Source: Bacteroidales bacterium (lineage in GTDB: Bacteria > Bacteroidota > Bacteroidia > Bacteroidales > UBA12077). Taken from it: a DNA stretch of 64,000 nucleotides. This document shows, piece by piece, positions 8,722 through 42,769 of the stretch (the stretch's first letter is position 1; each line of letters starts with the position of its first letter). The DNA is taken from positions 824,169 through 888,168 of the forward strand of contig JAEINU010000001.1 in NCBI GenBank assembly GCA_016342685.1. The letters are read 5' to 3'. A model generated the notes under the pieces. The model made no database searches. It was not told the origin of the DNA and was given only the letters and a program-made list of their open reading frames with translations. The position numbers and the translations under genes are program-made.

Positions 8722-8758
8722 TCTTAAAAAAAGAAATATAGGCGAAAAATAAATAATT

Positions 8759-10765: not shown

Positions 10766-10767
10766 TT

Positions 10768-12141
10768 ATGACGGATAAAAATCTGGATGTTTTGTTTTAT
10801 GTTCCATCTAAAAAGGAAAATGTAGATGAGCCTGAAAAACAATGGATTAATAATTTGAAATATATCCTTGAAATTAGTCTAAATCAGGTTTTAAAACGAA
10901 AAGCGAATTGTAACTTAGCATATGAAAACGATCCCATTCAAAATTCTGAAATCTATATTCAATGCTTTTTAGGAACAAATTTTTCTAAAGAAAAAACAAT
11001 TCAGAGTATATATAAAAGCGAAGATTTAAATATCTATCATGTATTAATTAACACTAATTCACTTGAGTTTTCGAATGCATTAATCAACTTAAAAACATAT
11101 CGTTTTTATAATGATCAAACCAGTAAGATTCTTGATTTAACATTGAAGTTAGAAGATATTTTAAATACTACGTGGCTTAAAATATCTGATCTTTCGTTTG
11201 AAATAGGAAAGGTTCTAAGAAAAAGGGATAAAAAGATACCTACAAACAATAAAATATTTATTGCAGAAACGAGTCCTGATCAGACATTGAATAGAAATTA
11301 TTTAGTGCGAGAGTTTAAGCATCAGGGTTACACTGTAGTTCCTGAAGATCAACTTCCTAATGATATTGTAAGTTTTAGTGATCAGGTTCAGAATCTTATG
11401 GAAGAATCGCTTATATCGATACATCTAATTGGGAATAATTATGCTCCTTTGCTTAACAATATTGAGATTTCGAAAGTAGAGTTGCAAAATGATATTTTTA
11501 ATGAAGTTATTGTAAAACCTGAATCTTTAAAACGGAATTTGCAGAGATTAGTACTTATTCCTCCTGCTTTAAAACCAAAATCTGACAAGCAAAAAAAGTA
11601 TATTGATAGTTTTAAACTAAATATTGAACTTCAAAAAAATACAGAGATAATACAATCGCCACTCGAAGATTTTAAATCTATAATTCAGAAAAAAGTAGAT
11701 GGATTTTTTAACGAGAATACTAAGCAAAAAGACGTCTCTATAAACAAATCAAAAAAAAGAACCATTTATATTATTGGCAATGGTACAAATGTAAATGCTA
11801 TAAAGGGTTTGAAAGAAGTACTTAATGAAAAAGGGTTTGATTTTGCTGAAACTATAAATTCTAAAAATAAAATTGAATTAATTAAAGATCATCAAAGAAA
11901 TTTAACTCATTGTGACGGTGTAATTGTTTATTATTCATCAAAAAATGAACAATGGTTAAATAGCAAATTGAGCGACATTGTTAAATCTCCTGGTATTGGA
12001 AGAAACATTCCATTTTTACTAAAAGCTATTTTGATAGATGGATTGCAGGAGCCAAAAATAGAAATGAATATTCGAGATTTACTGATTGTTAATACAAATA
12101 AACCCGATTATCTGAATCATTTATTGGAAAAAATAAAATAA
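10768..12141 (+). CDS. Hypothetical protein with two predicted flavodoxin-fold TIR/SLOG-like modules
   Basis: Beta-alpha-beta patterns KIFIAETSPDQ..GYTVVPEDQ..ISIHLIG and KRTIYIIGNGT..GFDF..CDGVIVYYSS. Start codon is 2 bp after the phosphatase stop, 4 bp before the STAND gene. Domain assignment is tentative. Confidence 0.35.
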   Translation: MTDKNLDVLFYVPSKKENVDEPEKQWINNLKYILEISLNQVLKRKANCNLAYENDPIQNSEIYIQCFLGTNFSKEKTIQSIYKSEDLNIYHVLINTNSLEFSNALINLKTYRFYNDQTSKILDLTLKLEDILNTTWLKISDLSFEIGKVLRKRDKKIPTNNKIFIAETSPDQTLNRNYLVREFKHQGYTVVPEDQLPNDIVSFSDQVQNLMEESLISIHLIGNNYAPLLNNIEISKVELQNDIFNEVIVKPESLKRNLQRLVLIPPALKPKSDKQKKYIDSFKLNIELQKNTEIIQSPLEDFKSIIQKKVDGFFNENTKQKDVSINKSKKRTIYIIGNGTNVNAIKGLKEVLNEKGFDFAETINSKNKIELIKDHQRNLTHCDGVIVYYSSKNEQWLNSKLSDIVKSPGIGRNIPFLLKAILIDGLQEPKIEMNIRDLLIVNTNKPDYLNHLLEKIK

Positions 12142-12145
12142 GATC

Positions 12146-15100
12146 ATGGCAGCTAGCAAAAATAAAAATATCAATGACTTAAATAACCCTTTCCCCGGTT
12201 TACGACCCTTTAAGGTCGAGGAAAGTCATTTGTTTTTTGGAAGAGAAGGTCAAAGTGAGGAAATATTAAATAAACTCTCCGACGAAAAGTTTGTTGCTGT
12301 TATCGGTGCATCTGGTAGTGGTAAATCTTCACTAATTTATTGTGGTTTGGTACCTGTATTATTTGGTGGGTTTGTTGGGGATGCAAATTCAACATGGAAA
12401 ATTATAGCTTCAAGACCTGGTAATTCTCCAATAGATAACCTTGCAAATGCAATTATTGGAAATTCAGAGAATGAAGATAACTCGGAAAACAATTTAATAA
12501 AGCAAAAGTTAAATGCTTCTATCTTACGAAGTAGTTCGAATGGTTTAGTAGAAGCTCTTGATCAAAATTACAATCTTGAAAAAGAAAATGTATTAATAAT
12601 AATTGATCAGTTTGAGGAACTGTTTAGATATAAATCGAGTAAAGGTGATCAATCAACATACAATGAATCGGAAGCTTTTGTAAAACTTTTAATCTCTGCA
12701 AATAAGGCAAAAGATGTTCCAGTTTACATTGTTTTAACGATGCGTTCTGATTTTATTGGCGAATGTTCTCAGTTTCATGAGTTAACTGAGTTAATAAATG
12801 AATCCAATTATTTAGTACCGCAAATGACGCGTGATGATTTTAAAAGCGCAATTGAAGGTCCTGTAGCAGTAGGCGGTGCAGAGATAGAAACACAATTAGT
12901 TCAGCAACTTTTAAATGAAGTAGGCGATAATCCCGATCAGCTTCCAATTTTGCAACATGCGCTAATGCGAACATGGAATTATTGGACAGAACATTCCGAC
13001 ACAGAGCAAGCAATTAGTATTTCGGATTATGCTGCAATTGGAAAAATGGAAAAAGCTTTGTCGGAACATGCGAATGAAGCATTTGATGAACTTAACGAAG
13101 ACGAAAAATTCATATGCGAAAGCATGTTTAAAACAATTACCGAAAAAGGTAATGATAATCGTGGTATTCGTCATCCTACAAGTATTAGTGATATTGCTAT
13201 AATTGCAAAAACTTCTACCGATAAGGTAAAGAAAGTTATAGATCCTTTTAGAGCAGCAGGAAGATCGTTTATTACACCATCGTTTGAAATAGAACTCGAA
13301 AATGATAGTATAATTGATTTATCGCATGAAAGTTTAATGCGTATCTGGAATAAACTACGAATTTGGGTTGAGGAGGAATGGAATGCAGTTCAAATGTATT
13401 CTCGATTATCAGAGGCATCGGAGATGTATCAACTTGGAAAAACTAGTTTATGGCGTCCGCCGGATTTACAATTAGCTTTAAATTGGAGAGATAAACAAAA
13501 GCCTACACTAGCTTGGGCTAAGAGATATAATCCTGCTTTTGAACGAGCAATGGTTTATTTAAAAACCAGCGATAAAGAGTTTAAAGCAGAAGAGGAAAAT
13601 AAGGTTAAGCTTCAGAAGAGACAACTTCGTCGTTCTAAGATATTTGCTATCGTATTGGGATCAGCTGCAATTATTGGAGTGGGTTTAACGATTTATTCAC
13701 AAATGCTTAAAGGAAGAGCCTTAAAACAAGAAAAAATAGCAACAGAGCAAAAGATAGAAGCGGATAAGCAAAAGGAAATTGCTGAAGAACAGACAATTAT
13801 CGCAAAAGAGAAGGAAAAGGAAGCCCTTGAACAGAAGGAAGAAGCGGAAAAACAAAAGTTAATTGCAGAGCAAAAGCAAAAAGAAGCAACACGGAATGCT
13901 GAGATTGCAGAAAGACAAACACAAATAGCAATACAACGGCAAGAAGAAGCAAATCAACAAAGAACTCTTGCAGAAAAGAATGCCGAAGAGGCAAGAAAAC
14001 AAACAGTGGAGGCAGAAAAGGCGCGGCAAGAAGCCTTAAGGAGAAGAATGCTGTCGATTTCGCAAAGTATGGCTGTTAAATCGCAACAAATATCCGACAA
14101 TACACAATTGAAGGCCTTGGTAGCGTATCAGTCTTATTTATTTAATAAAGATTATGATGGACCTAAGCATAACCCAGATGTGTATTTAGGTTTGTATTAT
14201 GCTTTAAAAGGATTAGAAGGTCAGTACTTTAATGCGCTCAATGGACATGAAGGATCTGTTATGGATATTGTTTTTGCACCCGAATCGAATGTCATGTATA
14301 GTACGGGTGGTGATGGAAAAATATTAAAATGGGATATTGGAAGTGATAATAAAAAGTTTGAGGTGATTGCTGAAAATCCATTCGTTCAAAGAGCGTTAGA
14401 AGTTACCAAAGATGGTAAATGGTTGATCTGTGCAACCGATCAAGCGAAGATATTATTGTTTAATCTGGAAAATAATGTTGAACAAAATCAAGAATTAATT
14501 GGGCATACTTCATTTGTAACAGGATTAGCGGTTGCTCCCGATAATTCATTCTTTATTTCATCGAGTAATGATAAGACAATTCGTAAATGGAATTTAAAAA
14601 CATTAGAAAGCGAAGTTCTTGTTACAAGCGATTCAAAAATAAATTCAATAGAAATATCTCCCGATTCAAAAAAAATTGTAGCAGGAACTCAAGATGGAAA
14701 AATTAGTATTTATGATTCTAATAACGAGAATTCTCCTATTGTTATTGAATCAAATTCAAAAAATGCAATATCATCAATATGTTATAATAAAAAAGGAGAC
14801 TGGATTGTTTCAGGTGATTCGAAAGGGAATGTTCAAGTTTGGGATGCAAATAATTATACTCAGATAAAAAATCTGCAAGGGCATAAATCAAGAATTTACG
14901 ATATTGCTTTTAACCCTAACGATTGTTTGCTTGCAACATCAAGTTTAGACGGTACCGTTCGGGTATGGGATTGTACAAATTTAAATAATCAGCCAATAGA
15001 GTTAAGAGATCATGAATCTTGGGTATTATCAATTTCTTTTACCCCAGACGGAAACAAATTAGTTACTTCTAGTAATAAAAAAGATAGAATCTTAATTTGG

Positions 15101-15238
15101 GATACTAAGCCAAATGCAATTGCAAGTAAAATCTTAAATAAATTAGAGCGTAATATGTCTGAAGATGAGTGGAATACTTATGTTGCCGAAGATATAGATT
15201 ATATCAAAACAATAGCTGAACAAATTAACACCAAATAA
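12146..15238 (+). CDS. Membrane-anchored STAND-class P-loop NTPase with coiled-coil stalk and C-terminal WD40 beta-propeller
   Basis: N-terminal PGLRPF..FFGRE motif followed by Walker A GASGSGKSS and Walker B IIIDQFEELF (AAA_16/NACHT-like, as in WD40/TPR-coupled STAND proteins). Single TM IFAIVLGSAAIIGVGLTIYS near residue 500. ~110-aa EKQK-rich coiled coil. At least 7 WD40 blades (GHEGSVMDIVF.., GHTSFVTGLAV.., GHKSRIYDIAF.. ending WD/WN). Confidence 0.75.
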   Translation: MAASKNKNINDLNNPFPGLRPFKVEESHLFFGREGQSEEILNKLSDEKFVAVIGASGSGKSSLIYCGLVPVLFGGFVGDANSTWKIIASRPGNSPIDNLANAIIGNSENEDNSENNLIKQKLNASILRSSSNGLVEALDQNYNLEKENVLIIIDQFEELFRYKSSKGDQSTYNESEAFVKLLISANKAKDVPVYIVLTMRSDFIGECSQFHELTELINESNYLVPQMTRDDFKSAIEGPVAVGGAEIETQLVQQLLNEVGDNPDQLPILQHALMRTWNYWTEHSDTEQAISISDYAAIGKMEKALSEHANEAFDELNEDEKFICESMFKTITEKGNDNRGIRHPTSISDIAIIAKTSTDKVKKVIDPFRAAGRSFITPSFEIELENDSIIDLSHESLMRIWNKLRIWVEEEWNAVQMYSRLSEASEMYQLGKTSLWRPPDLQLALNWRDKQKPTLAWAKRYNPAFERAMVYLKTSDKEFKAEEENKVKLQKRQLRRSKIFAIVLGSAAIIGVGLTIYSQMLKGRALKQEKIATEQKIEADKQKEIAEEQTIIAKEKEKEALEQKEEAEKQKLIAEQKQKEATRNAEIAERQTQIAIQRQEEANQQRTLAEKNAEEARKQTVEAEKARQEALRRRMLSISQSMAVKSQQISDNTQLKALVAYQSYLFNKDYDGPKHNPDVYLGLYYALKGLEGQYFNALNGHEGSVMDIVFAPESNVMYSTGGDGKILKWDIGSDNKKFEVIAENPFVQRALEVTKDGKWLICATDQAKILLFNLENNVEQNQELIGHTSFVTGLAVAPDNSFFISSSNDKTIRKWNLKTLESEVLVTSDSKINSIEISPDSKKIVAGTQDGKISIYDSNNENSPIVIESNSKNAISSICYNKKGDWIVSGDSKGNVQVWDANNYTQIKNLQGHKSRIYDIAFNPNDCLLATSSLDGTVRVWDCTNLNNQPIELRDHESWVLSISFTPDGNKLVTSSNKKDRILIWDTKPNAIASKILNKLERNMSEDEWNTYVAEDIDYIKTIAEQINTK

Positions 15239-15239
15239 A

Positions 15240-16274
15240 ATGAATAGATCTAAATCTTATATATTATTATGTATCCTTATTTTAGCGGGATTCATATCTA
15301 ACGCTCAGCAAACAAATTGTGCATTGAAACTCGACGAAGCTGAAAATCTATATGAAATGGGTGTTTTAGATTCGATACCCGCAATGTTAAGATCATGTAT
15401 AGATGATGGATTTGAGAATGAGGAACTTGCGCGAGCATATAAATTGCTTATTAGAACATATCTATTTGAAGATTATCAGGAAATGGCTGAATTAACAATG
15501 ATGAAATTTCTGAAAAAATTTCCTGAATACGAAATCAAAGCGAATGATCCGATTGAGTTCACATATTTATATAAATCGTATAAAACAGTTCCCTTATATT
15601 CAATAGGTATAATCGGCGGTGTTAATAATTCTTTTATAAGAATTATTGAACCTTATAGCCTAGATAATGCAGAAGATTATTCAGGAGAGTATTCTGTTTT
15701 GGGAGTTGGCTATCAGTTTGGAATCCAGATAAAAAGATATATAAATGATGAGATTGAAATAAACTTGGATGCCTTATTTGTAAATAAGAAGTTTGAGTAT
15801 AATAATGAACAATTAGATTCAAAAGTAAATTATAAAGAGAGTCAATCTCATTTATCATTCCCAATTACTGGAACATATGATTTGGAATATAAAAATGTTA
15901 GACCATTTGTTAGATTTGGTTTTAGTATCGATTATTTGTTAGCGTCGACAGCAAGTGTAGAAAGGTCTTTTACAGGACCTACCTCATTGGAAGCCTTAAC
16001 AGGTCCAGATCTAGATGTTGTTGAGGATAGAAACCCTCTGGATTTTTCTTTACTATTCGGTGTTGGATTAAAATACAATGTAAAAAAGGGATATGTCATT
16101 TTTGATGCGCGATACAATTTAGGTTTAACCAATACTGTGAATAGCGAAAATAGATATGCAAATCCTGAGAAAACATGGTATTATAATTATGTTGATGATG
16201 ATTTTGCTATTAATAATGTATATGTTTCAATTGGATATGTTTATCCATTTTATAGAACCAGAAAACAAAAATAG
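15240..16274 (+). CDS. Outer-membrane beta-barrel protein with N-terminal TPR-like helical segment
   Basis: Signal peptide (ILILAGFISNAQQ); helical hairpin; then alternating-hydrophobic beta strands typical of the Bacteroidota OMP_b-brl family. Start is 1 bp after the STAND gene stop. Confidence 0.5.
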   Translation: MNRSKSYILLCILILAGFISNAQQTNCALKLDEAENLYEMGVLDSIPAMLRSCIDDGFENEELARAYKLLIRTYLFEDYQEMAELTMMKFLKKFPEYEIKANDPIEFTYLYKSYKTVPLYSIGIIGGVNNSFIRIIEPYSLDNAEDYSGEYSVLGVGYQFGIQIKRYINDEIEINLDALFVNKKFEYNNEQLDSKVNYKESQSHLSFPITGTYDLEYKNVRPFVRFGFSIDYLLASTASVERSFTGPTSLEALTGPDLDVVEDRNPLDFSLLFGVGLKYNVKKGYVIFDARYNLGLTNTVNSENRYANPEKTWYYNYVDDDFAINNVYVSIGYVYPFYRTRKQK

Positions 16275-16279
16275 AAGCC

Positions 16280-17473
16280 ATGAATAAATCAAAATATATA
16301 ATACTTTTAATATACATTTTAACCTGCTATGCATGTGATAATTTAGACATCAAGTCAGGTCAATCAGAGTCTTTTATAAAAATATTTGGTTCGTATAGTG
16401 ATGATTATGGTGTAGATATAAAGGAATACGATAATGGTTATTTGATATTAGCAACAGTAAGTCCTAATAATGAAAATACAACAGACATTGCTATTATTAA
16501 AACTGATAAATATGGAAATCAAACAAATATTGAAACAATAGAGAAAAGTGGAAATGATCGTGCTTCAAAACTATTAATAACAAATGATGGAGGTTTTGTT
16601 ATTTTGGGAACATGTGAAGATACTGTTAACAATAACAAAGATATCTATGCTGCTAAGTACACCTCTACTTTAGAAAAAGAATGGACTAAGTCTATTGGTA
16701 AGGTCAGTGAAAATGAGGAAGGAATTTCAATTGCTAAACTATCAGATGGGTATTTAATTGCTGGTAATTCGGACGAAGCCAATGTGGCCAATGGAAATCC
16801 AAGTGGTGTGCAAGATATTGTTTTAATAAAAATAAACGAATCTGGAGATACACAATGGATAAATAGTTTTGGAGGAGTTGCCAAAGATATTGCAGTAGAT
16901 GTAATTGTTACCGATAATGGATTTGTTATAATTGGAACAACAGCAAGTTTTAGTGAACACGGACAGGACAAAGAAAACATAATTGTTATTAAAACAAATT
17001 CGGAAGGAAACGAAACGGATAAGTTAACATATGGAGGTTCATTCGACGACAAAGGTATTGCACTTATAGAATCAGATGCAGGTTATATTCTTCTTGGAAC
17101 CAAAGAGATATTATCAGGAGGAAACTCAGATATTTATTTAGTGTATTTAGGAAATGATATATATGATATTATTGATGAAAAAACATATGGCAGTTCAGGG
17201 GCAAACAATATTGGATCAGCTTTATATTATACAGGTAATAACCTTGTAGTTGCAGGAAGTAATGAAGAAGGAGGTGTAACTTCTGCCTATTTCTTAAAAC
17301 TAGATATTGAAGGAAATATTCTTATTGAAAATACTTTTGGTGGTTACGATGCACAAGTAATAAATGCTATTGAAAAGACAAGCGATGGTGGTTATATTAT
17401 GGTAGGTGTTAGTGGTTTCGGAGGAAATAATCAAATATGCTTATTAAAAGTAAGCTCTGAAGGGGAATTGTAA
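16280..17473 (+). CDS. Beta-propeller lipoprotein with ~50-aa degenerate blade repeats
   Basis: Lipoprotein signal (LTCYACDN). Repeated motifs DGGFVILGT / DGYLIAGNS / DNGFVIIGTT / DAGYILLGTK / DGGYIMVGVS. Confidence 0.5.
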   Translation: MNKSKYIILLIYILTCYACDNLDIKSGQSESFIKIFGSYSDDYGVDIKEYDNGYLILATVSPNNENTTDIAIIKTDKYGNQTNIETIEKSGNDRASKLLITNDGGFVILGTCEDTVNNNKDIYAAKYTSTLEKEWTKSIGKVSENEEGISIAKLSDGYLIAGNSDEANVANGNPSGVQDIVLIKINESGDTQWINSFGGVAKDIAVDVIVTDNGFVIIGTTASFSEHGQDKENIIVIKTNSEGNETDKLTYGGSFDDKGIALIESDAGYILLGTKEILSGGNSDIYLVYLGNDIYDIIDEKTYGSSGANNIGSALYYTGNNLVVAGSNEEGGVTSAYFLKLDIEGNILIENTFGGYDAQVINAIEKTSDGGYIMVGVSGFGGNNQICLLKVSSEGEL

Positions 17474-17516
17474 TTTCTTATATGTTGTTATTATTGGAAA
17501 TGAAAAGTAAAAAGCT

Positions 17517-20500
17517 ATGAAAAAGAGATATCAAATATTCTATATATTATTGTTTGTACTAATATCCAATCTGGGATTTGCACAATTAACTATAGTTAAT
17601 GCACTAGCTGTTGATGGCGATTCAAATGGATTTTATGGAACAGTGGAGATAGAATTTTCTACTGGAGTTAACGATGCTGAAATGCAAACAAGTGCATTGC
17701 CGCGAGACGATTGGGAGTTTTCTGAAGACCCAGAATTTACAACTTTTATTAGACCTAATAGCTTTAGTACAGAAGTTTTTGATATCGCAGTGGCAAATGT
17801 AGCAAATGATAAATATATTCGATTAACATTTCCATCTGAATTTTCTTCGAGTACTGGAACAATTTATTATAGATATATAAATGGTAATCTAGGTTCAGAT
17901 GATGTAACAGATTTTACTACAGGAACAGATGTGTTAGCTGATTTTGCAATTAAAAGTGCCACTGATGGTGCACCGCCTGTTATTTCTGGCGTTGTTTCAA
18001 ATGCAACAGATGCTGGAGTTTTAAAAGTTGGTGAATCGATTGTATTTACCGTCGATTTTGAAGATACTACTAATGATCCTAATTTAACAATACTACCTGC
18101 TCAATATAATAGTGAAGATTTAAACTGGATTACATCAAATGGTGGAGATACTTATACTGGAACGTATACTGTTACAGAAGGAAATGCAGATCAAACCACG
18201 GAATTACAATTAACAGGAGTAACAGCTACAGATGAGTATGGCAATGTGAGTGCATCTTTTAACGGAACTGATGTAGATAAAACGATTGATGCAAATACAC
18301 CTACTATTTCTTCAGTAACATCTGATGCAACTGCTGCTGACACATTAATTGTTGGAGAAACGATTACATTTACTGTTGATACAGAAACAGGACTTACAAT
18401 ATTACCCTTACAGTATAATGGACAAAACTTAAATTGGACAGCTATTAGTGGTGGAGATACCTATCAGGGTATATATACAGTAATGGAAGGTGATCAAGAT
18501 AGAATAACACCATTGCAGTTAACAGGAGTAACAGCTGAAGATGCTGCTGGGAATATTAGCAATACTGAAGATGGTAGTGATGTAGTAAAATCTATCGATG
18601 CAAATACACCATCGATAGTGACAGTTAAATCTGATGCAACAGCAGCTGGAATTTTAAAAGTTGGTGATAAAATAACTTTTACAATTGATGTTGCCACTCC
18701 AGATGGGAACTTAAGTGTAAATCCTTCCAATTATAATGGAGAAACCTTAAGTTGGTCTACGAGTGATGGAGGTGATTCATACATTGGAATATACACTGTA
18801 GTGGATAATGGTGTGGATCAGACTTCAGATTTGCAACTAACAGGAGTAACTTTAACAGATGCTGCAGGTAATGTTAGTAGTTCCGTTGATGGTGTTGATA
18901 TAGAGAAAACAATAGATTCAAATATACCTACTATTTCTTCAGTAACCTCCGATGCAACTGCTGCTGACACATTAATTGTTGGAGAAACGATTACGTTTAC
19001 CGTTGATGTTGTTGATACAGAAACAGGACTTACAATATTACCCTTACAGTATAATGGACAAAACTTAAATTGGACTGACATCAGTAGTGGTGATACTTAT
19101 CAGGGTATATATACCGTAATGGAAGGTGATCAGGATAGAATAACACCATTGCAGTTAACGGGAGTAACAGCTGAAGATGCTGCTGGGAATATTAGCAATA
19201 CTGAAGATGGTAGTGATGTAGTAAAATTAATCGATGCAAATACACCATCGATAGTGACAGTTAAATCTGATGCAACAGAAGCTGGGATTTTAAAAGTCGG
19301 TGATAAAATAACCTTTACAATTGATGTCGCTACTCCAGATGGGAACTTAAGTGTAAATCCTTCCAATTATAATGGAGAAACCTTAAGTTGGTCTACGAGT
19401 GATGGAGGTGATTCATACATTGGAATATACACTGTAGTGGATAATGGTGTGGATCAGACTTCAGATTTGCAACTAACAGGAGTAACTTTAACAGATGCTG
19501 CAGGTAATGTTAGTAGTTCCTTTGATGGTGTTGATATAGTGAAAACAATAGATTCAAATATACCTACTATTTCTTCAGTAACATCTGATGCAACTGCTGC
19601 TGATACATTAATTGTTGGAGAAACAATTACATTTACTGTTGATGTTGAAGATACAGAAACAGGACTTACAATATTACCCTTACAGTATAATGGACAAAAC
19701 TTAAATTGGACTGAGGTTAGTAGTGGTGATACCTATCGGGGTATATATACAGTAATGGAAGGTGATCAAGATAAAATAACACCATTGCAGTTAACAGGAG
19801 TAACAGCTGAAGATGCTGCTGGGAATATTAGCAACACTGAAGATGGTAGTGATGTAGTAAAATCTATCGATGCAAATACACCATCGATAGTGACAGTAAC
19901 ATCTGATGCAACCTTACTAGGAGTTCTAAAAGTTGGAGATAAAATTACATTTACTATAGATGTGGTTACTTCTGATGGAAACCTAACAGTTAATCCTACA
20001 AGCTATAATGGCAGAGCTTTAAATTGGTTTACAGATGATGGAGGCAGCACTTATACAGGAATATACAATGTTACAGAAGGAGATCCAGATCAATCTTCAG
20101 CTTTGCCTTTTACAGGAGTGACCTTAACTGATGTAGCAGGTAATGTAAGTGCAATATATAGTGCAAGTGATGTTGTAAAGACGATTGATGCGAATTCTCC
20201 ATTTATAAATAATTTTGTTGTACCTCAAATTAATATGACAATAGGAAACACTTATACAGCCACGATAAGTGTTAGTTCAGATCCTGATACTTATACTCTT
20301 ACTTCTGGTGAACTATCTGGATTTACGTTACATTCTTTAACAAAAGATGCTGATGATTCTTATTCGGTTGATTTTACTATTACCGATTTAGGATACGACA
20401 TATTAAGTGATAATTCATATTTGATTTCTAATTTGGTGATGTCAGATGCCTCTGGTAATATTTCAAATACTTATTCAAGTTCAATAAGTCAAATAAATGA

Positions 20501-23500
20501 TCCTATTTATACAATTTCTCCTTCGGCAAAAGTTTCAGGAAATTATGATATTTGTGATAAAGATTCAGCAACACTTTTATTTCAGTTAACAGGTAATTCA
20601 CCTTGGGATATTGAGCTAGATACTGGAGTAGGAATAACCACTATTTCAAGTATAAATGCCTCGCCTTATATTTATAAAGTACAAGCGAATGATTTAAATA
20701 ATTTGGTTGATCCTGATACTGCAATATATAAAATTACACAGGTTACAGATGTAAATGGGATTATTGTCAGTGTAGGTTCACCAATCGATAGTGCTACGGT
20801 ATTTGCTTATAAATTACCTGTAGTTGATATTACATATCCTGCGGGAGATCAAACATATAATATAAGTGCAAGTGAAGATACTTTAGTTGGAAATCCTCTT
20901 AATGGGATTTTTACTGGAGCAGGAATTGTATCCTCAAATAACACATTTCATCCTTCATCAGCAGGTCTTGGAGAGCATAATATAGAATATACTTATACAG
21001 ACCCAACCTCAGGATGTTCAAATTTAGACTCAGTAGAGTTAACCGTTATAGAATCAGCAGCAGAAATTGTTTTTCAAAATAACGATACATGGTGGTGTGA
21101 TTATGAAACATCGTTTACTTTAACAGGAGCTGTAGTCGGGAAACCGTCAATAGTTGGAACTTTTTCTTTAGATAAAGATGGAGGCGCAATTAGCTCGACA
21201 GCTGATAATGCTGCCATAATTGATATTAGTTTATTAGTTAGCGGGGGGTCTTACATTGTTAGTTATAGTTATTTTGATGGTGTTCCAATTACATTCATAA
21301 AAAGTTTTACTATTGAATCTGTAAATACAGATATTGGTATTCCAGTTATTAATGATATGTGTGAAGATTATGATACAGTATTTGTAAATGCTTATAATCT
21401 TGCTCCATTAGGAGGTAGTGGTACTTTTACCTTTTCAGGCAGTAGTAGTGACTATTTTATAAATGACCCTAACAATAATAAACTTTATTTTTATCCTGAT
21501 TCGATTGCTCCCGGGGATTATAATTTGAAATATTACTACACAACTCCAAATGGATGTAATAGCGTTGAAACATCACGAGATTTTAAAGTAAATGCCTTAC
21601 CAATTGTTGATATTGTAATGGATAATCTTTATAATATTGAGGGTGGAGTTGAAATTATTTCTGGAACTCCAAATACACCAGCAGGTATATTCTCACCTAG
21701 TTTCATGATTGACAATAGTAACGGAACAGCGAACTTTAACCCATCTATAGTGGGTTTAGGTATTGATACTGCATATTATACTTATACAGATGTTAATGGT
21801 TGTGTTAATCAAGATACCGCAATATTTGAAGTTGATAAAGCAAAAGGACAATTCTATGGATTAGATAAGTTTGATTCTAAAAATCAATATTGTTATTTTA
21901 ATAGTTTATCCGATACAATTAGTGTAATTCCTTTAAATGGGAGTGGTTTTCCAGGTTCATTTTATATTGATAATATATTATTTACTAATAATGTTGGTAA
22001 TGATAGTATAGCATTTTCACCTTCAGATATAATTTCAGGAAACCATGATTTGAGATTTACATATACCAGAGATGGAGTTGAATTTAATCTCGATACAGTC
22101 TTTAATATTGATTCCATTGGGAGTTTAAGTGTTGTTGGACTTGATAGTGAATATTGTCAAGATGATGATAGAAGCATTAATCTTACGGGGATTTCAGATG
22201 GCGCTGGATCAGGTTTAAGTATTTTTGGAGGGGATGGTATTACTGATGTAAATGGAATATTTAAACCAGCTGATGCTAATATAGGAACAAATACGATCTC
22301 ATACACATTTACAAGAGATGATTCTGGGTGCCAAAAGAGTGTTAGTGTAAATAGCCTAATAAATAAAGTGCCAGATATCGGATTTATTCTTGAAAAGACT
22401 TGTATTTCTAGCATTCAAGATTCTGTTTTATTTACTTCAGATACTTTATCATCTGATAATGTGATTAACTGGAATTGGTCTGTAACAGCACTTGGAAATA
22501 GCAGATTAAGTAATGAAATCAATCCTAAATTTTCGTTAACAAAGCAAGAGAAAAACTTTATTTCATTAACTGTTGAAACAGATAAAGCGTGTTCTTCTTC
22601 TCTAGATAGTAGTATTTTTATAGGTTCTGTTGTAGATATAGATTTCTCTTGGGATAAGGAATGCTTTGGCGAAACAGTTACATTCAAGGTTTTAGAAAAA
22701 ACGGATGAGCTAGGGGTCGACAGTGTTCGATGGAATTTTGGAGGAGATGGTTTTTCCGATTTAACAGATATTTATAATCCGCAATATACATATGATGTTC
22801 ATGGAGGGTATGATGTTACATACGAAGAGTTTACAAAATCTTGTGGACTTATTTCAGAAACCCTAAAGATAAATATTCGTCCTTCCATTAGTTTAAGTTC
22901 TGGGGCATATTTCGAAGATTTTGAAGAAGAATCAGATGTGACTGGATGGGCTGTTGATATTTTAGAAAGTACTTCGAACTCATCATGGGAATGGGGTGTT
23001 CCGAATGGAACGCTTATCAATACAGCAGCAGATGGAACTAGTGCGTTTGTTACAAATTTGGATGGGAATTATGCAAATGACGAGAAATCTATTATTTCAA
23101 GTCCTTGTTTTGATTTGTCGGGACTTGAACGACCAATGATATCGTTTGATTTTATTTCTGATCTTCAAGAAGATAGAGATGGAGTTGTAATTGAATATGC
23201 TGTTGATAAAGAAAACTGGAAGATATTAGGATTTGCAGATCAAGGTGTTGATTGGTTTAATACAAACACAAATTACGATGCTATTTTAGGTTCTTCTAGA
23301 GCTTGGACTGGCGATGGCGAAGGTGAATCATTTTCAAGTGAGGATGTAGAATGGAGAAAAGCGAAATATTGGCTCGAAGATGTAGTTGGAGAAGCAGGAG
23401 TAAGGTTTAGGTTTACTCTGGGAACTGATGATGCCGGAGTGAATGAAGGTTTTGGATTTGATAATTTGCGAATTGGTGATAGAAACAGAATGGTATTATT

Positions 23501-24428
23501 AGAGCATTTTGCAAATCCTTCAGAAGAAGATTTTATTAATACTCAGAATATAATCAACAATATTGTAAGTGATAACCCATTAGATGTTATATCAGTTCAG
23601 TTTTTCACAAGTTTCCCTGAAATAAATGATTTAAGTAGTTTTTATACTGCTGGACCAAGTGCAAGATCTTTATATTATGGTGTATCACAAGTTCCTTATT
23701 CTATTGTTGATGGGGGCGATAGAAAATTTAATTATTCTAGTACAAATACTTTAGGAACAGTTGATATTCAGAAAAGAATGCTTGAAGAATCTAAATTTGA
23801 AATAAATGTTAAGCAAGATAATCAAAATGATAAATTAGTTGTTTCTGGATCAATCAAAGCAAAGGAAAATATTTCAGGAATTGGAATAAGTGCAAGAATT
23901 GCAATAGTTGAAAAGACAATTCGTTATGAAGAAAATACTATTCATAATGTACTTAGAGCTATGCTGCCAGATCCGGCAGGGAAGCTAATAGAGAGAGAGT
24001 GGCTAGCTAATGATTCGGTAATGGTATATCAATCTTGGGATTTGCCAGAATTAGTAAATAAAGATAGCTTAATGGCAATCCTTTTCATTCAGGATGAATT
24101 AACAAATGAAATATATCAGGCTGGATTTACTGATAAATTTTCAATTGTTACGTCAAATGAATCAGATTTTATTCAGAATGAAAATACATATAGTATATAC
24201 CCAAATCCAATGTCAGATTATTTTACAATAGTGTTTGGGGTTGAACAAAAAGAAGATCTAGTAATAGACTTATATAATAATATTGGTGTACTTGTTAAAA
24301 CAATGAAGTTAGAGCAAGGTCTTAGTATGATTGAGGTAAATACAGATGACTTGCCTATAGGTATTTATTATGTACAGGTTAAATATCCTAATTATATAAG
24401 TTCACAAAAAATTGTAAAGAGTAATTAA
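17517..24428 (+). CDS. Giant (2303 aa) cell-surface adhesin-like protein: signal peptide, ~8 Ig-like ~105-aa modules, beta-rich region, MAM-like domain, T9SS type-A C-terminal sorting domain
   Basis: Signal peptide. Repeated module TP.I..V.SDAT.AG.LKVG..ITFT.D ... LTGVT..D.AGN.S. MAM-like block GWAVDILESTSNSSWEWGVP...SPCFDL. C-terminus YSIYPNPMSDYFTIVF...GIYYVQVKY matches the Por_Secre_tail pattern. Confidence 0.8.
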   Translation: MKKRYQIFYILLFVLISNLGFAQLTIVNALAVDGDSNGFYGTVEIEFSTGVNDAEMQTSALPRDDWEFSEDPEFTTFIRPNSFSTEVFDIAVANVANDKYIRLTFPSEFSSSTGTIYYRYINGNLGSDDVTDFTTGTDVLADFAIKSATDGAPPVISGVVSNATDAGVLKVGESIVFTVDFEDTTNDPNLTILPAQYNSEDLNWITSNGGDTYTGTYTVTEGNADQTTELQLTGVTATDEYGNVSASFNGTDVDKTIDANTPTISSVTSDATAADTLIVGETITFTVDTETGLTILPLQYNGQNLNWTAISGGDTYQGIYTVMEGDQDRITPLQLTGVTAEDAAGNISNTEDGSDVVKSIDANTPSIVTVKSDATAAGILKVGDKITFTIDVATPDGNLSVNPSNYNGETLSWSTSDGGDSYIGIYTVVDNGVDQTSDLQLTGVTLTDAAGNVSSSVDGVDIEKTIDSNIPTISSVTSDATAADTLIVGETITFTVDVVDTETGLTILPLQYNGQNLNWTDISSGDTYQGIYTVMEGDQDRITPLQLTGVTAEDAAGNISNTEDGSDVVKLIDANTPSIVTVKSDATEAGILKVGDKITFTIDVATPDGNLSVNPSNYNGETLSWSTSDGGDSYIGIYTVVDNGVDQTSDLQLTGVTLTDAAGNVSSSFDGVDIVKTIDSNIPTISSVTSDATAADTLIVGETITFTVDVEDTETGLTILPLQYNGQNLNWTEVSSGDTYRGIYTVMEGDQDKITPLQLTGVTAEDAAGNISNTEDGSDVVKSIDANTPSIVTVTSDATLLGVLKVGDKITFTIDVVTSDGNLTVNPTSYNGRALNWFTDDGGSTYTGIYNVTEGDPDQSSALPFTGVTLTDVAGNVSAIYSASDVVKTIDANSPFINNFVVPQINMTIGNTYTATISVSSDPDTYTLTSGELSGFTLHSLTKDADDSYSVDFTITDLGYDILSDNSYLISNLVMSDASGNISNTYSSSISQINDPIYTISPSAKVSGNYDICDKDSATLLFQLTGNSPWDIELDTGVGITTISSINASPYIYKVQANDLNNLVDPDTAIYKITQVTDVNGIIVSVGSPIDSATVFAYKLPVVDITYPAGDQTYNISASEDTLVGNPLNGIFTGAGIVSSNNTFHPSSAGLGEHNIEYTYTDPTSGCSNLDSVELTVIESAAEIVFQNNDTWWCDYETSFTLTGAVVGKPSIVGTFSLDKDGGAISSTADNAAIIDISLLVSGGSYIVSYSYFDGVPITFIKSFTIESVNTDIGIPVINDMCEDYDTVFVNAYNLAPLGGSGTFTFSGSSSDYFINDPNNNKLYFYPDSIAPGDYNLKYYYTTPNGCNSVETSRDFKVNALPIVDIVMDNLYNIEGGVEIISGTPNTPAGIFSPSFMIDNSNGTANFNPSIVGLGIDTAYYTYTDVNGCVNQDTAIFEVDKAKGQFYGLDKFDSKNQYCYFNSLSDTISVIPLNGSGFPGSFYIDNILFTNNVGNDSIAFSPSDIISGNHDLRFTYTRDGVEFNLDTVFNIDSIGSLSVVGLDSEYCQDDDRSINLTGISDGAGSGLSIFGGDGITDVNGIFKPADANIGTNTISYTFTRDDSGCQKSVSVNSLINKVPDIGFILEKTCISSIQDSVLFTSDTLSSDNVINWNWSVTALGNSRLSNEINPKFSLTKQEKNFISLTVETDKACSSSLDSSIFIGSVVDIDFSWDKECFGETVTFKVLEKTDELGVDSVRWNFGGDGFSDLTDIYNPQYTYDVHGGYDVTYEEFTKSCGLISETLKINIRPSISLSSGAYFEDFEEESDVTGWAVDILESTSNSSWEWGVPNGTLINTAADGTSAFVTNLDGNYANDEKSIISSPCFDLSGLERPMISFDFISDLQEDRDGVVIEYAVDKENWKILGFADQGVDWFNTNTNYDAILGSSRAWTGDGEGESFSSEDVEWRKAKYWLEDVVGEAGVRFRFTLGTDDAGVNEGFGFDNLRIGDRNRMVLLEHFANPSEEDFINTQNIINNIVSDNPLDVISVQFFTSFPEINDLSSFYTAGPSARSLYYGVSQVPYSIVDGGDRKFNYSSTNTLGTVDIQKRMLEESKFEINVKQDNQNDKLVVSGSIKAKENISGIGISARIAIVEKTIRYEENTIHNVLRAMLPDPAGKLIEREWLANDSVMVYQSWDLPELVNKDSLMAILFIQDELTNEIYQAGFTDKFSIVTSNESDFIQNENTYSIYPNPMSDYFTIVFGVEQKEDLVIDLYNNIGVLVKTMKLEQGLSMIEVNTDDLPIGIYYVQVKYPNYISSQKIVKSN
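18300..20198 (+). repeat. Three tandem near-identical coding repeats (627, 636, 636 bp; each encodes two Ig-like modules) inside the adhesin gene
   Basis: Identical antisense ORFs at 18494-18730 and 19130-19366 (offset 636). Direct reading shows >90% nucleotide identity between units starting at 18300, 18927 and 19563. Unit 3 diverges after ~19900. Confidence 0.85.
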
Positions 24429-24431
24429 TAA

Positions 24432-24463
24432 AACAAGGGCATCTAAGTGGATGCCCTTGTTTT
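24432..24463. terminator. Bidirectional rho-independent terminator between convergent genes
   Basis: Perfect 12-bp stem AACAAGGGCATC / GATGCCCTTGTT with 6-nt loop, flanked by A-run upstream and T-run downstream. Confidence 0.7.
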
Positions 24464-24464
24464 A

Positions 24465-25019
24465 TTATCTGTTATCTCTTCTTCGATAATGCTTTTCTTG
24501 GTTTTCCCTTCGATGAGAATTTCGTCTAGGCTCTTTATCTTGAACAGAAATCATTCGAATAAATAATTTCTTTAAGACTTCTTGTTGTTCTTCATTGCAA
24601 ATTTCTTTTAGTCCAAGAAAATGATCCGAAGTAAGTAATTTTAGTTCATAATGCAAATTGCCAATTTGTCTTGAAATTGAATCTATATTTTTCAGATTCG
24701 GATCTTTATTAGCAATTTCATCTATTAATAAATGCCTGTATTTATTGAGTGCATCACTTTTATTTCGTGTTTTCACTGCATACTCTCTATTGATATTTTT
24801 AAACGCATTAAATTGCTCATCTGATAATTTTAATTCATTTCTAAAATAATCATACATTCCTGATCTTCTAATTTCTTCTTTCTGAATATTTATCTTATCT
24901 ATCTTTTTAGCTTTAATTTTACTATTGTAATAAATAGTACCTAATGCCGATACATTTATTATTACAAGTAAAGTAATTAGAATAATTAGAAGTCTTTTTT
25001 TATTAATACTATTCATCAT
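24465..25019 (-). CDS. Periplasmic Spy/CpxP-family (LTxxQ-like) protein, likely envelope-stress chaperone
   Basis: Signal/anchor helix; helical repeats with LSDEQFNAFK and LTSDHFLGLKEI motifs; last gene of the ECF sigma operon. Confidence 0.5.
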   Translation of the reverse strand: MMNSINKKRLLIILITLLVIINVSALGTIYYNSKIKAKKIDKINIQKEEIRRSGMYDYFRNELKLSDEQFNAFKNINREYAVKTRNKSDALNKYRHLLIDEIANKDPNLKNIDSISRQIGNLHYELKLLTSDHFLGLKEICNEEQQEVLKKLFIRMISVQDKEPRRNSHRRENQEKHYRRRDNR

Positions 25020-25030
25020 TAATAAGTTTA

Positions 25031-25513
25031 TTATTTTTGAATTAAACTGTCATTATTTATTAGAGTATTTTCTATACTTTCAATTTCAAAATCATTTAAG
25101 TATTTATTTTCAGAAAAGACTTTAATATAATCTTGCTCTTCAATATTTAATTCAGAGTATTGTTCTGAATTTCCGGAATATGAACCAATTTGTATTCCAA
25201 TAAATACTGCTATTATAACAGAAGAGAGATACAGGGCTGGTTGCATTATTTTATTATTATATAATCTTGTTAAAACAGAAGTTTTTTGAATAAGATTGCT
25301 TTCTATTTTCTGTTTTAATCTTGTATAATAAAATGCGTGTTCTTCAATATTTTTTGTTGGCTTTAACAAATTAAGCGTATTAATAACGCTGGTATATTTA
25401 CTGTAACATAACGTACAATTATCAAGATGTAATTCAATTGCCTTTCTGTTCTCATCTGATAATGATCCATCAATGTACTTGGATAATATTTTATTTACAT
25501 CTTTACATCTCAT
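25031..25513 (-). CDS. Anti-sigma factor (zf-HC2 type) with single TM
   Basis: N-terminal H-x3-C-x2-C motif (LHLDNCTLC); central TM (LYLSSVIIAVFIGIQIG); located immediately downstream of the ECF sigma gene. Confidence 0.7.
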   Translation of the reverse strand: MRCKDVNKILSKYIDGSLSDENRKAIELHLDNCTLCYSKYTSVINTLNLLKPTKNIEEHAFYYTRLKQKIESNLIQKTSVLTRLYNNKIMQPALYLSSVIIAVFIGIQIGSYSGNSEQYSELNIEEQDYIKVFSENKYLNDFEIESIENTLINNDSLIQK

Positions 25514-25566
25514 TGGTCTATTTTTTGTTATATGACACTTATAATGTGCTTATTATTACAAATTGT

Positions 25567-26136
25567 TTAGTTTTTTTTGTAATAATCAAGTATTAATTTT
25601 TGTAATTTCTTTTTACCTCTATTAATTAAAACTCCAACTTCTGATACAGAAATTTCCATTACTTCTGATATTTCTTTGTACGATAAATCTTCAAAATTAT
25701 TCAGAGTTATAGCTATTCTTTGTTTTTCAGGGAGCTTATTAAGTGCAAAATACAATGCTTTTTTATTTTCGTTACGCTCAAGATCTTCACCAGGCTTTAG
25801 CGCTGTATCTTCAGGATCATTTTTTTTTGAGTCATCATTAAAAAGAACATCTAAACTCGAAAATAATCTATTTTTTTTCTTTGATCTTAAGTAGTTTAAA
25901 GATTTATTAACTGATATTCTGTACAACCAAGTTGTTATTTTAGAATCGCCTCTAAACGATTCGATTGATTCGTAGAACTGAATAAAAACCTCCTGTGAAA
26001 CATCCATAGAATCATCATAGTTGTTTAAAATGTTGTTGCAAATATTTAGTACAAGATGATGATGCATTTCAACAAAGGTTTGAAACGCTTTTTCATCTTT
26101 ATTTGCAATTTTATCTATTAGGATTCTTTCGTCCAT
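25567..26136 (-). CDS. RNA polymerase ECF-type sigma-70 factor
   Basis: Region 2 (FQTFVEMHHHLVLNICNNIL ... WLYRISVNKSLNYLR) and region 4 HTH (LSYKEISEVMEISVSEVGVLINRGKKKL). Confidence 0.85.
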   Translation of the reverse strand: MDERILIDKIANKDEKAFQTFVEMHHHLVLNICNNILNNYDDSMDVSQEVFIQFYESIESFRGDSKITTWLYRISVNKSLNYLRSKKKNRLFSSLDVLFNDDSKKNDPEDTALKPGEDLERNENKKALYFALNKLPEKQRIAITLNNFEDLSYKEISEVMEISVSEVGVLINRGKKKLQKLILDYYKKN

Positions 26137-26288
26137 TCAGGAATTTCGTAATCGTTTTTATTATGACACAAAAAAAGAAATTTTATTACACTTTGCGACT
26201 TTTATGTATAAGAATTTTCAAAATATAAATAATAAGTCTATTTAAGTTTAATCGTATTTCTTTCAGTTATATGATCGCTATATATAGT

Positions 26289-28373: not shown

Positions 28374-28405
28374 TTTCTCATTTTTTATACTAAAATAACT
28401 AAAAA

Positions 28406-28972: not shown

Positions 28973-29068
28973 AATTTAAATGATTATTAGTGATCCAAAT
29001 TATGAAATTTGAATCACTAAAAAAAGCGCAACCAGTAATTGTTGCGCTTAGATTTAATTTGAAATTAA

Positions 29069-31153: not shown

Positions 31154-31274
31154 TTTATTTAGTTTTTTAAATTAACGTGAATTTAAAAAAAGATAGACAG
31201 TTTACAAGGACAAAAAACAATAAAAAAAAGTGCAACTGTTTAGTTGCACTTTTTTTATCAATGACGATTATTAA

Positions 31275-42474: not shown

Positions 42475-42502
42475 ATAAGGGTAGGTTTTTTTAGTTTGTA
42501 GA

Positions 42503-42534
42503 AAAGGAGGACATTATATTGTTCTCCTTTTTTA
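42503..42534 (+). terminator. Rho-independent terminator after MCP1
   Basis: AGGAGGACA / TGTTCTCCT stem followed by a T6 run. Confidence 0.55.
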
Positions 42535-42769
42535 ATTTCTAAATAATTCTGTCTGAACTTATAACTCTAAAGGTGATTTATGGTATTATCAATATGTCAA
42601 TCAATTCTATTTAAAAAGAGCAGGCTGGTATCGAATAGCAGAACCAATTTATTGTAAAAAACAATTCAAAGAATGAAGCTTATCCGATTATGTTTATTAT
42701 CTAACATTATTTACTACAGACGCATAAATTAGAAAATATTTAATTAGATCTCTCCTCGTTTTTAAAATG

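What the first reader, a model, noticed from the sequence alone, without database searches (positions are those of the whole stretch)
18300..20198. Near-identical 636-bp tandem coding repeats in the giant T9SS adhesin gene
Three consecutive units (18300, 18927, 19563) are >90% identical at the nucleotide level and each encodes two ~105-aa Ig-like modules. One unit lacks a 9-bp GTTGATGTT insert. This level of identity implies ongoing unequal recombination, so repeat-number variation (surface-antigen length variation) and possible assembly collapse. Flanking, more diverged copies show an older expansion.
Basis: seen in the sequence. Interest (0 to 1): 0.55.

Follow-up and report, generated by a model that had tools for sequence, protein, structure and literature searches.

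The report
Two-domain tandem repeats in surface protein
A large secreted surface protein of an uncultured Bacteroidales bacterium holds about 2.5 near-identical copies of a 636-bp unit encoding two Ig-like domains. This is an ordinary recombination-prone domain array of a known kind, and its copies have swapped sequence between two strains without changing in number.

Summary
The repeat is real, but the description needs correcting. Gene 17517-24428 (2303 aa, T9SS type A C-terminal sorting domain) carries seven ~106-aa modules: M0-A1-B1-A2-B2-A3-B3.

- **Identity:** A1/A2/A3 are 94-96% identical in DNA and B1/B2 are 97%. B3 is only 73% identical to B1/B2. The near-identical tract is therefore 2.55 units (18300-~19912), not three.
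- **9-nt gap:** it is real, and it is a deletion specific to this strain.
- **Fold:** an AlphaFold model of A2B2 (pLDDT 96.8) shows two Ig-like beta-sandwiches.
- **Second strain:** an independent assembly, 96.8% identical, has the same seven modules. Its A copies are mosaic relative to the window (25 of 91 site pairs fail the four-gamete test). Sequence has moved between copies, but copy number has not changed.
- **Age of the copies:** copy-to-copy dS (0.07-0.20) is about equal to or above strain-to-strain dS (0.086), with dN/dS 0.06-0.25. The copies are not very young and are under purifying selection.
- **Sister species:** alleles with 3 and 5 modules exist, differing by an exact 639-bp two-module unit flanked by a 23-nt direct repeat. 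One scaffold has a gap inside the repeat.
- **Other lineages:** further lineages show their own two-module expansions.

Verdict: a Periscope-like repeat array in a T9SS cargo protein, a new member of a known kind. The label "adhesin" is untested.

The parts
17517..24428 (+). Whole gene, 2303 aa. It is identical to NCBI MBI9052832.1 (MAG, Bacteroidales bacterium; annotated 'T9SS type A sorting domain-containing protein').
   Evidence: ORF list, translation, 100% match to P0001.
17517..17585 (+). Probable Sec signal peptide (MKKRYQIFYILLFVLISNLGFA|Q).
   Evidence: Read from the translation. Orthologues have equivalent N-termini. No signal-peptide predictor was run.
17586..17975 (+). N-terminal ~130-aa beta-sandwich domain with no assigned family.
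   Evidence: No Pfam match. AF2 pLDDT 86.4, all-beta. Best PDB hits are CopC/PcoC, E 2.6e-3, TM 0.48-0.61.
17976..18299 (+). Module M0, an old Ig-like module. It is 66-68% nt identical to the A and B modules.
   Evidence: Groups with module 1 of three-module orthologues.
18300..18608 (+). Module A1 (309 nt). It lacks 9 nt after about 18380.
   Evidence: 95-96% nt identical to A2/A3. Strain L001 has the 9 nt in its A1, so this is a deletion derived in the window strain.
18609..18926 (+). Module B1.
   Evidence: 97% nt identical to B2, 67% to the A modules.
18927..19244 (+). Module A2.
   Evidence: Its 3' two-thirds match A1 of L001 (4 differences in 231 nt) rather than A2 of L001 (18 differences).
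19245..19562 (+). Module B2.
19563..19880 (+). Module A3.
   Evidence: 94-96% nt identical to A1/A2. Closest to A3 of L001.
19881..20198 (+). Module B3, a diverged terminal module. Only its first ~32 nt match B1/B2 closely.
   Evidence: 73% nt and 64-65% aa identical to B1/B2. Edge of near-identity shown. Groups with module 3 of P0002 and module 7 of P0019.
20199..20528 (+). Degenerate eighth module (M7), 22-31% aa identical to the others.
   Evidence: Module HMM score 17 at aa 907-989.
18300..19912 (+). The near-identical tract: 2.55 copies of the 636-nt A+B unit.
   Evidence: Self-shift profile, junction alignments, independent shift scan.
18696..18884 (+). Longest exact repeat, 189 nt, identical to 19332-19520. 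This is ample substrate for homologous recombination.
24195..24416 (+). T9SS type A C-terminal sorting domain (aa 2227-2300).
   Evidence: PF18962, 38.4 bits against a cut-off of 27. TIGR04183, 32.9 bits against a cut-off of 23.

Best explanation
The region is a lineage-specific tandem amplification of a two-domain (A-B) unit. It sits in the Ig-like module array near the N-terminus of a T9SS-secreted, probably cell-surface, protein.

**Inferred history.** The ancestral array had three modules, M0-A-B3. Unequal homologous recombination or replication slippage between the conserved junctions of modules two positions apart added A-B units. Because these junctions lie two modules apart, near-identical domains never sit next to each other. 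The resulting long repeats (exact stretches up to 189 nt) then exchanged sequence by gene conversion or unequal crossover. This made the copies mosaic between strains, and a 9-nt slippage deletion arose in A1.

**Shown:**
- the anatomy of the array
- the Ig-like fold of the modules
- purifying selection on every copy
- exchange between copies after the two strains split
- gain or loss of one two-module unit in the sister species
- recurrent two-module expansions in other lineages

**Inferred:**
- the recombination mechanism
- that adding units lengthens an extended rod and so changes how far the N-terminal domain projects, as in Periscope Proteins
- that the protein stays attached to the cell surface
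For: **Anatomy and identities:**

**Fold.** The AF2 model of A2B2 has pLDDT 96.8 and shows two beta-sandwiches. Foldseek PDB top hits are tandem Ig domains, NCAM2 Ig1-2 and titin Z1Z2, at probability 1.00. Pfam gives weak Big_12 and Filamin matches.

**T9SS cargo.** PF18962 and TIGR04183 both match above their cut-offs.

**Three-module ancestry.**
- Seven orthologues have three modules.
- M0, A and B3 group with orthologue modules 1, 2 and 3.

**Selection.** Between copies, dN/dS is 0.06-0.25 and dS is 0.07-0.20. Between the two strains, dS is 0.086 and dN/dS 0.13.

**Exchange between copies.**
- The independent assembly L001 is 96.8% identical and has the same seven modules.
- W_A2 matches L_A1 (4 differences in 231 nt) and not L_A2 (18 differences).
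- The first ~75 nt of W_A1 are of the A2/A3 type. L_A1 carries 14-15 private differences over that stretch.
- 25 of 91 informative site pairs fail the four-gamete test.

**Gain or loss of a unit in the sister species.**
- L002 has 5 modules. L003-L005 have 3. Apart from this they differ by 2-5 mismatches in 5.6 kb.
- The two 639-nt copies in L002 differ at 1 of ~662 nt.
- In the three-module allele, the 23-nt direct repeat ATAGATGCACACAAGCCTGTAAT sits at both junctions, 639 nt apart.

**Recurrence.**
- Near-identical modules two positions apart occur in P0004, P0005, P0009, P0017 and P0075.
- The DNA repeat periods are 645 nt in L007 and L008, and 639 nt in L002.
- Only 1 of 222 adjacent module pairs is >=80% identical. 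The median adjacent identity is 49.5%.
Against: - All sequences come from metagenome assemblies. Mosaic copies could partly reflect reads from paralogous copies or co-existing strains being merged during assembly.
- No copy-number difference is seen in the window's own lineage, though only two distinct assemblies are available.
- A simple [A B] duplication does not explain why A3 is near-identical to A1/A2 while B3 is only 73% identical to B1/B2. An extra step is needed, such as an old B/B3 split followed by later homogenisation of the A copies.
- The repeats lie near the N-terminus, with ~1400 aa of other domains between them and the C-terminal anchor. They would extend only the distal tip, not the main stalk.
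- Surface attachment and any binding function are untested.
Confidence: 0.7

Rival explanations
1. Assembly artefact. The number, order or mosaic make-up of the A/B units is a product of metagenome assembly: collapse, over-expansion, or a mixture of strain variants. The real gene would then differ from the window sequence.
For: - The source is a MAG.
- Exact repeats reach 189 nt. [Own knowledge] That is longer than typical short reads or assembly k-mers.
- In the sister species the same region is assembled as 3 modules, as 5 modules, with a 100-N scaffold gap, or cut at contig ends.
Against: - A second, independent assembly (JGI sample 3300035388, 705-kb contig) gives the same seven modules in the same order.
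- Every copy is in frame, with dN/dS 0.06-0.25, like the rest of the gene.
- Copies differ at 8-20 sites per 318 nt, which gives an assembler anchors.
- The contigs are long, 1.45 Mb and 705 kb.
- Collapse of an additional fully identical unit cannot be excluded.
Confidence: 0.15
2. A fixed, stable duplication with no present-day dynamics. The A-B units were duplicated once or twice before the two known strains split, and are now simply diverging slowly as ordinary paralogous domains.
For: - Both strains have the same copy number.
- Copy-to-copy dS of 0.07-0.20 is no lower than the strain-to-strain dS of 0.086.
- All copies are under purifying selection.
Against: - Positional orthology is broken. 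W_A2 matches L_A1. The 5' end of W_A1 is A2/A3-like while that of L_A1 is not. 25 of 91 site pairs fail the four-gamete test.
- The sister species carries a two-module indel among genomes that are >99.9% identical elsewhere in the gene.
Confidence: 0.12
3. Targeted hypervariation, such as a diversity-generating retroelement acting on template and variable repeats, rather than plain recombination.
For: Only the superficial resemblance of near-identical repeats that differ at scattered sites.
Against: - Differences between copies show no adenine-specific bias. For A2 against A3 the counts are G>A 5, C>T 4, T>C 3 and so on.
- Most differences are synonymous.
- The units are whole two-domain modules in tandem inside one ORF.
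- Pfam scans of the adjacent genes (5578-17473 and 24465-32726) matched no reverse-transcriptase family.
Confidence: 0.01

Closest known systems
Periscope Proteins: variable-length bacterial surface proteins such as SasG, Rib, Sgo_0707 and CdrA (Whelan et al. 2021, PMC8201768)
   Same: - Long, highly similar DNA tandem repeats encode folded, mostly Ig-like (E-set) domains joined by short linkers, in a protein with a C-terminal surface-anchoring signal.
- Intragenic recombination is proposed as the source of repeat-number change.
- SasG in particular also repeats a two-domain unit, G5 plus E.
   Different: - Here near-identical domains are never adjacent. A and B are 51-53% identical in aa. The paper stresses that classic Periscope Proteins break the rule of <50% identity between neighbouring domains.
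- There are only 2.55 units, at 94-97% identity.
- No repeat-number variation is seen in the window's own lineage (2 assemblies).
- The anchor signal is a T9SS CTD, not LPXTG.
- The repeats sit near the N-terminus, with ~1400 aa of other domains between them and the anchor.
Large repetitive T9SS cargo proteins of Bacteroidota, such as the Flavobacterium johnsoniae gliding adhesins SprB and RemA (named from my own knowledge, not tested here)
   Same: Very large, beta-rich, repetitive proteins with an N-terminal signal peptide and a C-terminal T9SS sorting domain.
   Different: - No sequence relationship to SprB or RemA was tested or found here.
- This protein has a type A CTD (TIGR04183). It scored only weakly against CHU_C, described in Pfam as a Type IX secretion signal domain (E 0.0056, 17.2 bits against a cut-off of 27).
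- A role in gliding or adhesion is unknown.
Super-repeats in eukaryotic multi-Ig proteins such as titin, and the rule of low identity between adjacent domains (refs 15 and 31-33 of PMC8201768)
   Same: - Duplication acts on blocks of several domains, so neighbours stay dissimilar.
- Across the 75 homologous proteins examined, the median identity of adjacent modules is 49.5%. Near-identical modules sit 2, 3 or 5 positions apart.
- The predicted fold resembles tandem titin Ig domains.
   Different: This is a bacterial secreted protein with much younger copies. A misfolding-avoidance rationale is an inference here and was not tested.

Membership tests
T9SS type A cargo protein | C-terminal sorting domain (TIGR04183 / PF18962) at the extreme C-terminus | tested here: met
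   PF18962 matches aa 2227-2300 of 2303 at 38.4 bits (cut-off 27). TIGR04183 scores 32.9 bits (cut-off 23).
T9SS type A cargo protein | N-terminal Sec signal peptide | tested here: inconclusive
   A basic N-terminus, a hydrophobic stretch and GFA|Q are visible in the translation and conserved in orthologues. No signal-peptide predictor was available.
T9SS type A cargo protein | The host genome encodes the T9SS machinery (PorK/L/M/N, Sov, PorU/V) | not testable with these tools
   Only the 64-kb window is available. None of the window proteins scanned against Pfam matched a T9SS machinery family, but not every ORF was scanned.
Periscope Proteins (PMC8201768) | Long, highly similar DNA tandem repeats inside the gene | tested here: met
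   The unit is 636 nt. A copies are 94-96% and B copies 97% identical, over 2.55 units.
Periscope Proteins (PMC8201768) | The repeats encode folded domains arrayed in tandem with short linkers | tested here: met
   AF2 pLDDT 96.8, showing two beta-sandwiches. PDB matches are to tandem Ig domains. Modules abut at IDANTP / IDSNIP junctions. Whether the array is rod-like and rigid was not measured.
Periscope Proteins (PMC8201768) | Repeat number varies between closely related strains | tested here: inconclusive
   In the window's lineage, both assemblies have 7 modules. In the sister species there are 3 against 5 modules among otherwise near-identical genes, but collapse in short-read assembly cannot be excluded.
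Periscope Proteins (PMC8201768) | Adjacent repeat domains are themselves highly similar (the family 'breaks the rule') | tested here: not met
   Adjacent A and B modules are 51-53% aa and 66-67% nt identical. Near-identical modules are always two apart. SasG, with its alternating G5/E, is a member with similar alternation.
Periscope Proteins (PMC8201768) | The repeat stalk lies between the cell anchor and a distal functional (ligand-binding) domain | tested here: inconclusive
   A ~130-aa N-terminal beta-sandwich precedes the repeats, but it has no recognised binding family. About 1400 aa of other domains lie between the repeats and the CTD.
Diversity-generating retroelement target | Template/variable repeat pair with adenine-specific mismatches and a nearby reverse transcriptase | tested here: not met
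   The substitution spectrum is not A-biased. No reverse-transcriptase family was matched among the neighbouring genes scanned.

The most novel reading that the evidence does not exclude
In this family of T9SS surface proteins, length changes occur only in blocks of two or more domains, so that identical Ig-like domains are never neighbours. That would make it a 'register-alternating' Periscope design: it keeps long DNA repeats available for recombinational length variation while still obeying the rule against identical adjacent domains that classic Periscope Proteins break.

This would extend the Periscope concept to environmental Bacteroidota and T9SS anchoring. It would also offer a natural test of whether avoiding misfolding shapes repeat architecture.
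Probability: 0.25. Interest if true: 0.45.

Novelty: new member of a known kind. Interest (0 to 1): 0.3.

Why it matters
**Practical.** Repeat counts in this gene family cannot be trusted from short-read MAGs. The sister species is assembled with 3 modules, with 5 modules, or with a gap. Gene length, domain counts and strain comparisons therefore need long reads.

**Biological.**
- Recombination-prone arrays of surface-protein domains, well documented in pathogens as Periscope Proteins, also occur in T9SS cargo of uncultured environmental Bacteroidales.
- The unit of change here is a two-domain block flanked by short junction homology.
- If length really varies in populations, it would be a simple way to tune how far a distal domain projects from the cell.
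- None of this is surprising to a specialist.

Tried and rejected
- **Tandem Repeats Finder** found nothing relevant, because its longest period is 500 nt. I used self-shift profiles and pairwise alignments instead.
- **Scans of metagenome contigs and genome contigs**, by protein and by an exact 28-nt repeat motif, found no further relatives.
- **Exact look-up of P0001** in the contig index found no record, so I have no sample metadata or read information for the window's own assembly.
- **Literature search** for 'type IX secretion' plus 'periscope' returned one paper whose title and abstract concern an unrelated topic.
- **DGR-type mutagenesis** was considered and rejected.
- **A recognisable adhesive domain at the N-terminus** was looked for and not found. 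There is no Pfam match, and the model only weakly resembles CopC-like beta-sandwiches.
- **A simple model of three rounds of [A B] duplication** was rejected, because B3 is far more diverged than A3.
- A first shift scan of L007 and L008 used shifts out of frame and found nothing. It was corrected.
Full report
**1. What is at the coordinates**

The region lies inside one long ORF, 17517-24428 on the + strand (2303 aa). The product is identical to NCBI MBI9052832.1, which is annotated 'T9SS type A sorting domain-containing protein' from a Bacteroidales MAG on a 1.45-Mb contig.

The units are 627, 636 and 636 nt long. Each unit encodes two modules of 103-106 aa.

I name the modules as follows:

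| Module | Coordinates |
|---|---|
| M0 | 17976-18299 |
| A1 | 18300-18608 |
| B1 | 18609-18926 |
| A2 | 18927-19244 |
| B2 | 19245-19562 |
| A3 | 19563-19880 |
| B3 | 19881-20198 |
| M7 (degenerate) | 20199-20528 |

**2. How similar the copies are**

- A1/A2/A3 are 94-96% identical in DNA and B1/B2 are 97%.
- A against B is only 66-67% nt and 51-53% aa identical.
- B3 is only 73% nt and 64-65% aa identical to B1/B2.
- As whole units, U1-U2 is 96.3% identical, U1-U3 84.7% and U2-U3 83.5%.
- A self-comparison at a 636-nt shift shows near-identity with sharp edges. It begins at the first base of A1 and ends about 32 nt into B3, near 19912. The tract therefore holds 2.55 units, not three.
- The 9-nt difference is real. 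A1 reads GTTGAT-ACA where A2 reads GTTGATGTTGTTGAT-ACA. This is an in-frame loss of three codons inside a small local direct repeat.
- The longest exact repeat is 189 nt, 18696-18884 matching 19332-19520.

**3. What the modules are**

Pfam gives only borderline Big_12 and Filamin matches.

I aligned A2B2 with 28 other two-module segments: three from this gene and 25 from homologues. The AlphaFold2 model built from this alignment has mean pLDDT 96.8 and shows two all-beta domains. Foldseek against the PDB returns tandem Ig domains first: NCAM2 Ig1-2, Dpr4 Ig1-2 and titin Z1Z2, all at probability 1.00. 'Two Ig-like modules per unit' is therefore confirmed.

The C-terminus carries a type A T9SS sorting domain above the curated cut-offs. 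The N-terminus looks like a Sec signal peptide.

The ~130-aa domain ahead of the modules has no Pfam match. Its model (pLDDT 86.4) only weakly resembles CopC-like beta-sandwiches. Calling the protein an 'adhesin' is therefore a guess.

**4. History of the array**

A search of 5.8 billion proteins found 68 relatives. I built an HMM from the seven modules and used it to count modules in each relative.

- Seven orthologues have three modules. Others have four to seven.
- In a neighbour-joining tree, M0, the A modules and B3 group with modules 1, 2 and 3 of the three-module orthologues.
- The ancestral state was therefore probably M0-A-B3, and the extra A-B units are specific to this lineage.
- A plain [A B] duplication does not explain why A3 is near-identical to A1/A2 while B3 is not. 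An older B/B3 split followed by later homogenisation of the A copies, or a conversion tract ending 32 nt into B3, is needed. This remains unresolved.

**5. Is exchange ongoing?**

The protein's 90%-identity cluster has one other member, P0069 (2306 aa). It is encoded on a 705-kb JGI contig, fetched as L001.

- The two genes are 96.8% identical in DNA. Their only length difference is the 9 nt, which L001 has in its A1. The deletion is therefore derived in the window strain, and both strains have seven modules.
- Copy-to-copy dS is 0.20 (A1-A2), 0.086 (A1-A3), 0.20 (A2-A3) and 0.069 (B1-B2), with dN/dS 0.06-0.25.
- The two strains differ by dS 0.086 and dN/dS 0.13 outside the repeats.
- The copies are thus about as old as the strain split or older, and each is under purifying selection like the rest of the gene.

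Positional orthology is nevertheless broken:

- Over alignment columns 118-348, W_A2 differs from L_A1 at 4 sites but from L_A2 at 18.
- The first ~75 nt of W_A1 are of the A2/A3 type, while L_A1 carries 14-15 private differences over that stretch.
- 25 of 91 pairs of informative sites show all four allele combinations.

This is the signature of gene conversion or unequal crossover among the copies after the split, with no net change in number. One caveat applies: both sequences are metagenome assemblies, and some of the mosaicism could be an assembly effect.

**6. Direct evidence for unit gain or loss, from the sister species**

The cluster of the closest orthologue contains proteins of 1871 aa and 2084 aa, plus truncated forms. 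The members include P0002 and P0070, the latter from Bacteroidetes bacterium GWC2_33_15.

- L002 has five modules and L003-L005 have three. The genes otherwise differ at only 2-5 of ~5600 positions.
- The two 639-nt copies in L002 differ at 1 of ~662 positions.
- L006 has a 100-N scaffold gap inside the repeat.
- P0071 and P0073 contain the m3-to-m2 junction that is diagnostic of the duplication.
- In the three-module allele, a perfect 23-nt direct repeat, ATAGATGCACACAAGCCTGTAAT, sits at the m1|m2 junction and at the junction after m3, 639 nt apart. The five-module allele is exactly what recombination or slippage between these two sites would produce.
- Whether the three-module assemblies are real alleles or collapsed repeats cannot be decided without reads.

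**7. Recurrence and the two-module rule**

- Near-identical modules two positions apart also occur in P0004 (89-99% aa), P0005 (88-92%), P0009 (96%) and P0017 (94%).
- The DNA periods are 645 nt in L007 and L008.
- Across the 75 homologous proteins examined, only 1 of 222 adjacent module pairs is >=80% identical. The median adjacent identity is 49.5%. Near-identical modules lie 2, 3 or 5 positions apart.
- Two explanations fit this. One is the position of junction homology. The other is selection against identical neighbouring domains, a rule that the Periscope paper notes is usually obeyed in multidomain proteins and is broken by classic Periscope Proteins.

**8. Comparison with what is known**

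The closest concept is the Periscope Protein class (PMC8201768). These are surface proteins with long, highly similar DNA repeats encoding mostly Ig-like domains, whose number varies between strains. SasG also repeats a two-domain unit, G5/E.

This locus meets the repeat and fold criteria. It does not meet the criterion of highly similar adjacent domains. It is inconclusive on strain-level number variation and on stalk placement. It also uses a T9SS anchor signal. I file it as a new member of a known kind, not a new kind.

DGR-type mutagenesis is excluded by the substitution spectrum.

**9. Verdict**

The feature is real, is understandable by established mechanisms, and is of modest interest. 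Its main practical message is that module counts in this gene family are unreliable in short-read assemblies.

Noticed in passing
window 5578-17473 (+): A tightly packed same-strand gene row lies upstream of the giant gene:
- HEAT-repeat protein, 1047 aa
- HAMP + SpoIIE/PP2C phosphatase (SiaA-like), 668 aa
- 457-aa protein with no family match
- nSTAND1 NTPase fused to a WD40 propeller, 1030 aa
- OMP_b-brl_2 outer-membrane barrel, 344 aa
- 397-aa protein with a weak match to SBBP-repeat propeller lipoproteins

This is possibly a signalling and envelope module linked to the T9SS protein.
   Followed up: partly
window 15240-26136; loci L001, L002-L006, L007, L008: Gene order is conserved in lineages whose giant protein is only 40-50% identical. 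The order is: OMP_b-brl_2 barrel, a ~400-aa protein, the giant T9SS protein. In L001, L007 and L008, on the opposite strand, there then follows a 181-184-aa protein (weak Metal_resist match in the window, L007 and L008). In L001 and L008 a zf-HC2 anti-sigma factor and an ECF sigma factor come next; L007's contig ends before them. This suggests an ECF-controlled surface cassette.
   Followed up: partly
window 40402-51900 (+): Four methyl-accepting chemotaxis proteins with different sensor domains lie within 11.5 kb of a MAG labelled Bacteroidales: PDC at 40402-42474, HBM at 44785-46782, dCache at 47357-49420 and CZB at 49876-51900. From my own knowledge, chemoreceptors are unusual in Bacteroidota.
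   Followed up: no
window 26289-28373 and 29069-31153 (-): Two prolyl oligopeptidase (S9) paralogues of exactly 694 aa each are separated by a 188-aa ORF, a nearby duplication of a whole gene.
   Followed up: no
window 20529-23900 (+), aa ~1005-2130 of the giant protein: The rest of the protein has almost no Pfam coverage. It contains repeated Cys-bearing segments of the form ...Y.YTD.NGC...D...., a weak PKD_4 match, a weak InhA-like MAM match and a weak Omp28 match before the CTD. These domain types are largely uncharacterised.
   Followed up: partly
protein P0019 (JGI, partial, 7.4-kb contig): This orthologue is 49% identical and also has seven modules, at the same positions as the window protein. 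Its copies are diverged (46-77% aa). It looks like an older expansion that became fixed and drifted apart.
   Followed up: partly
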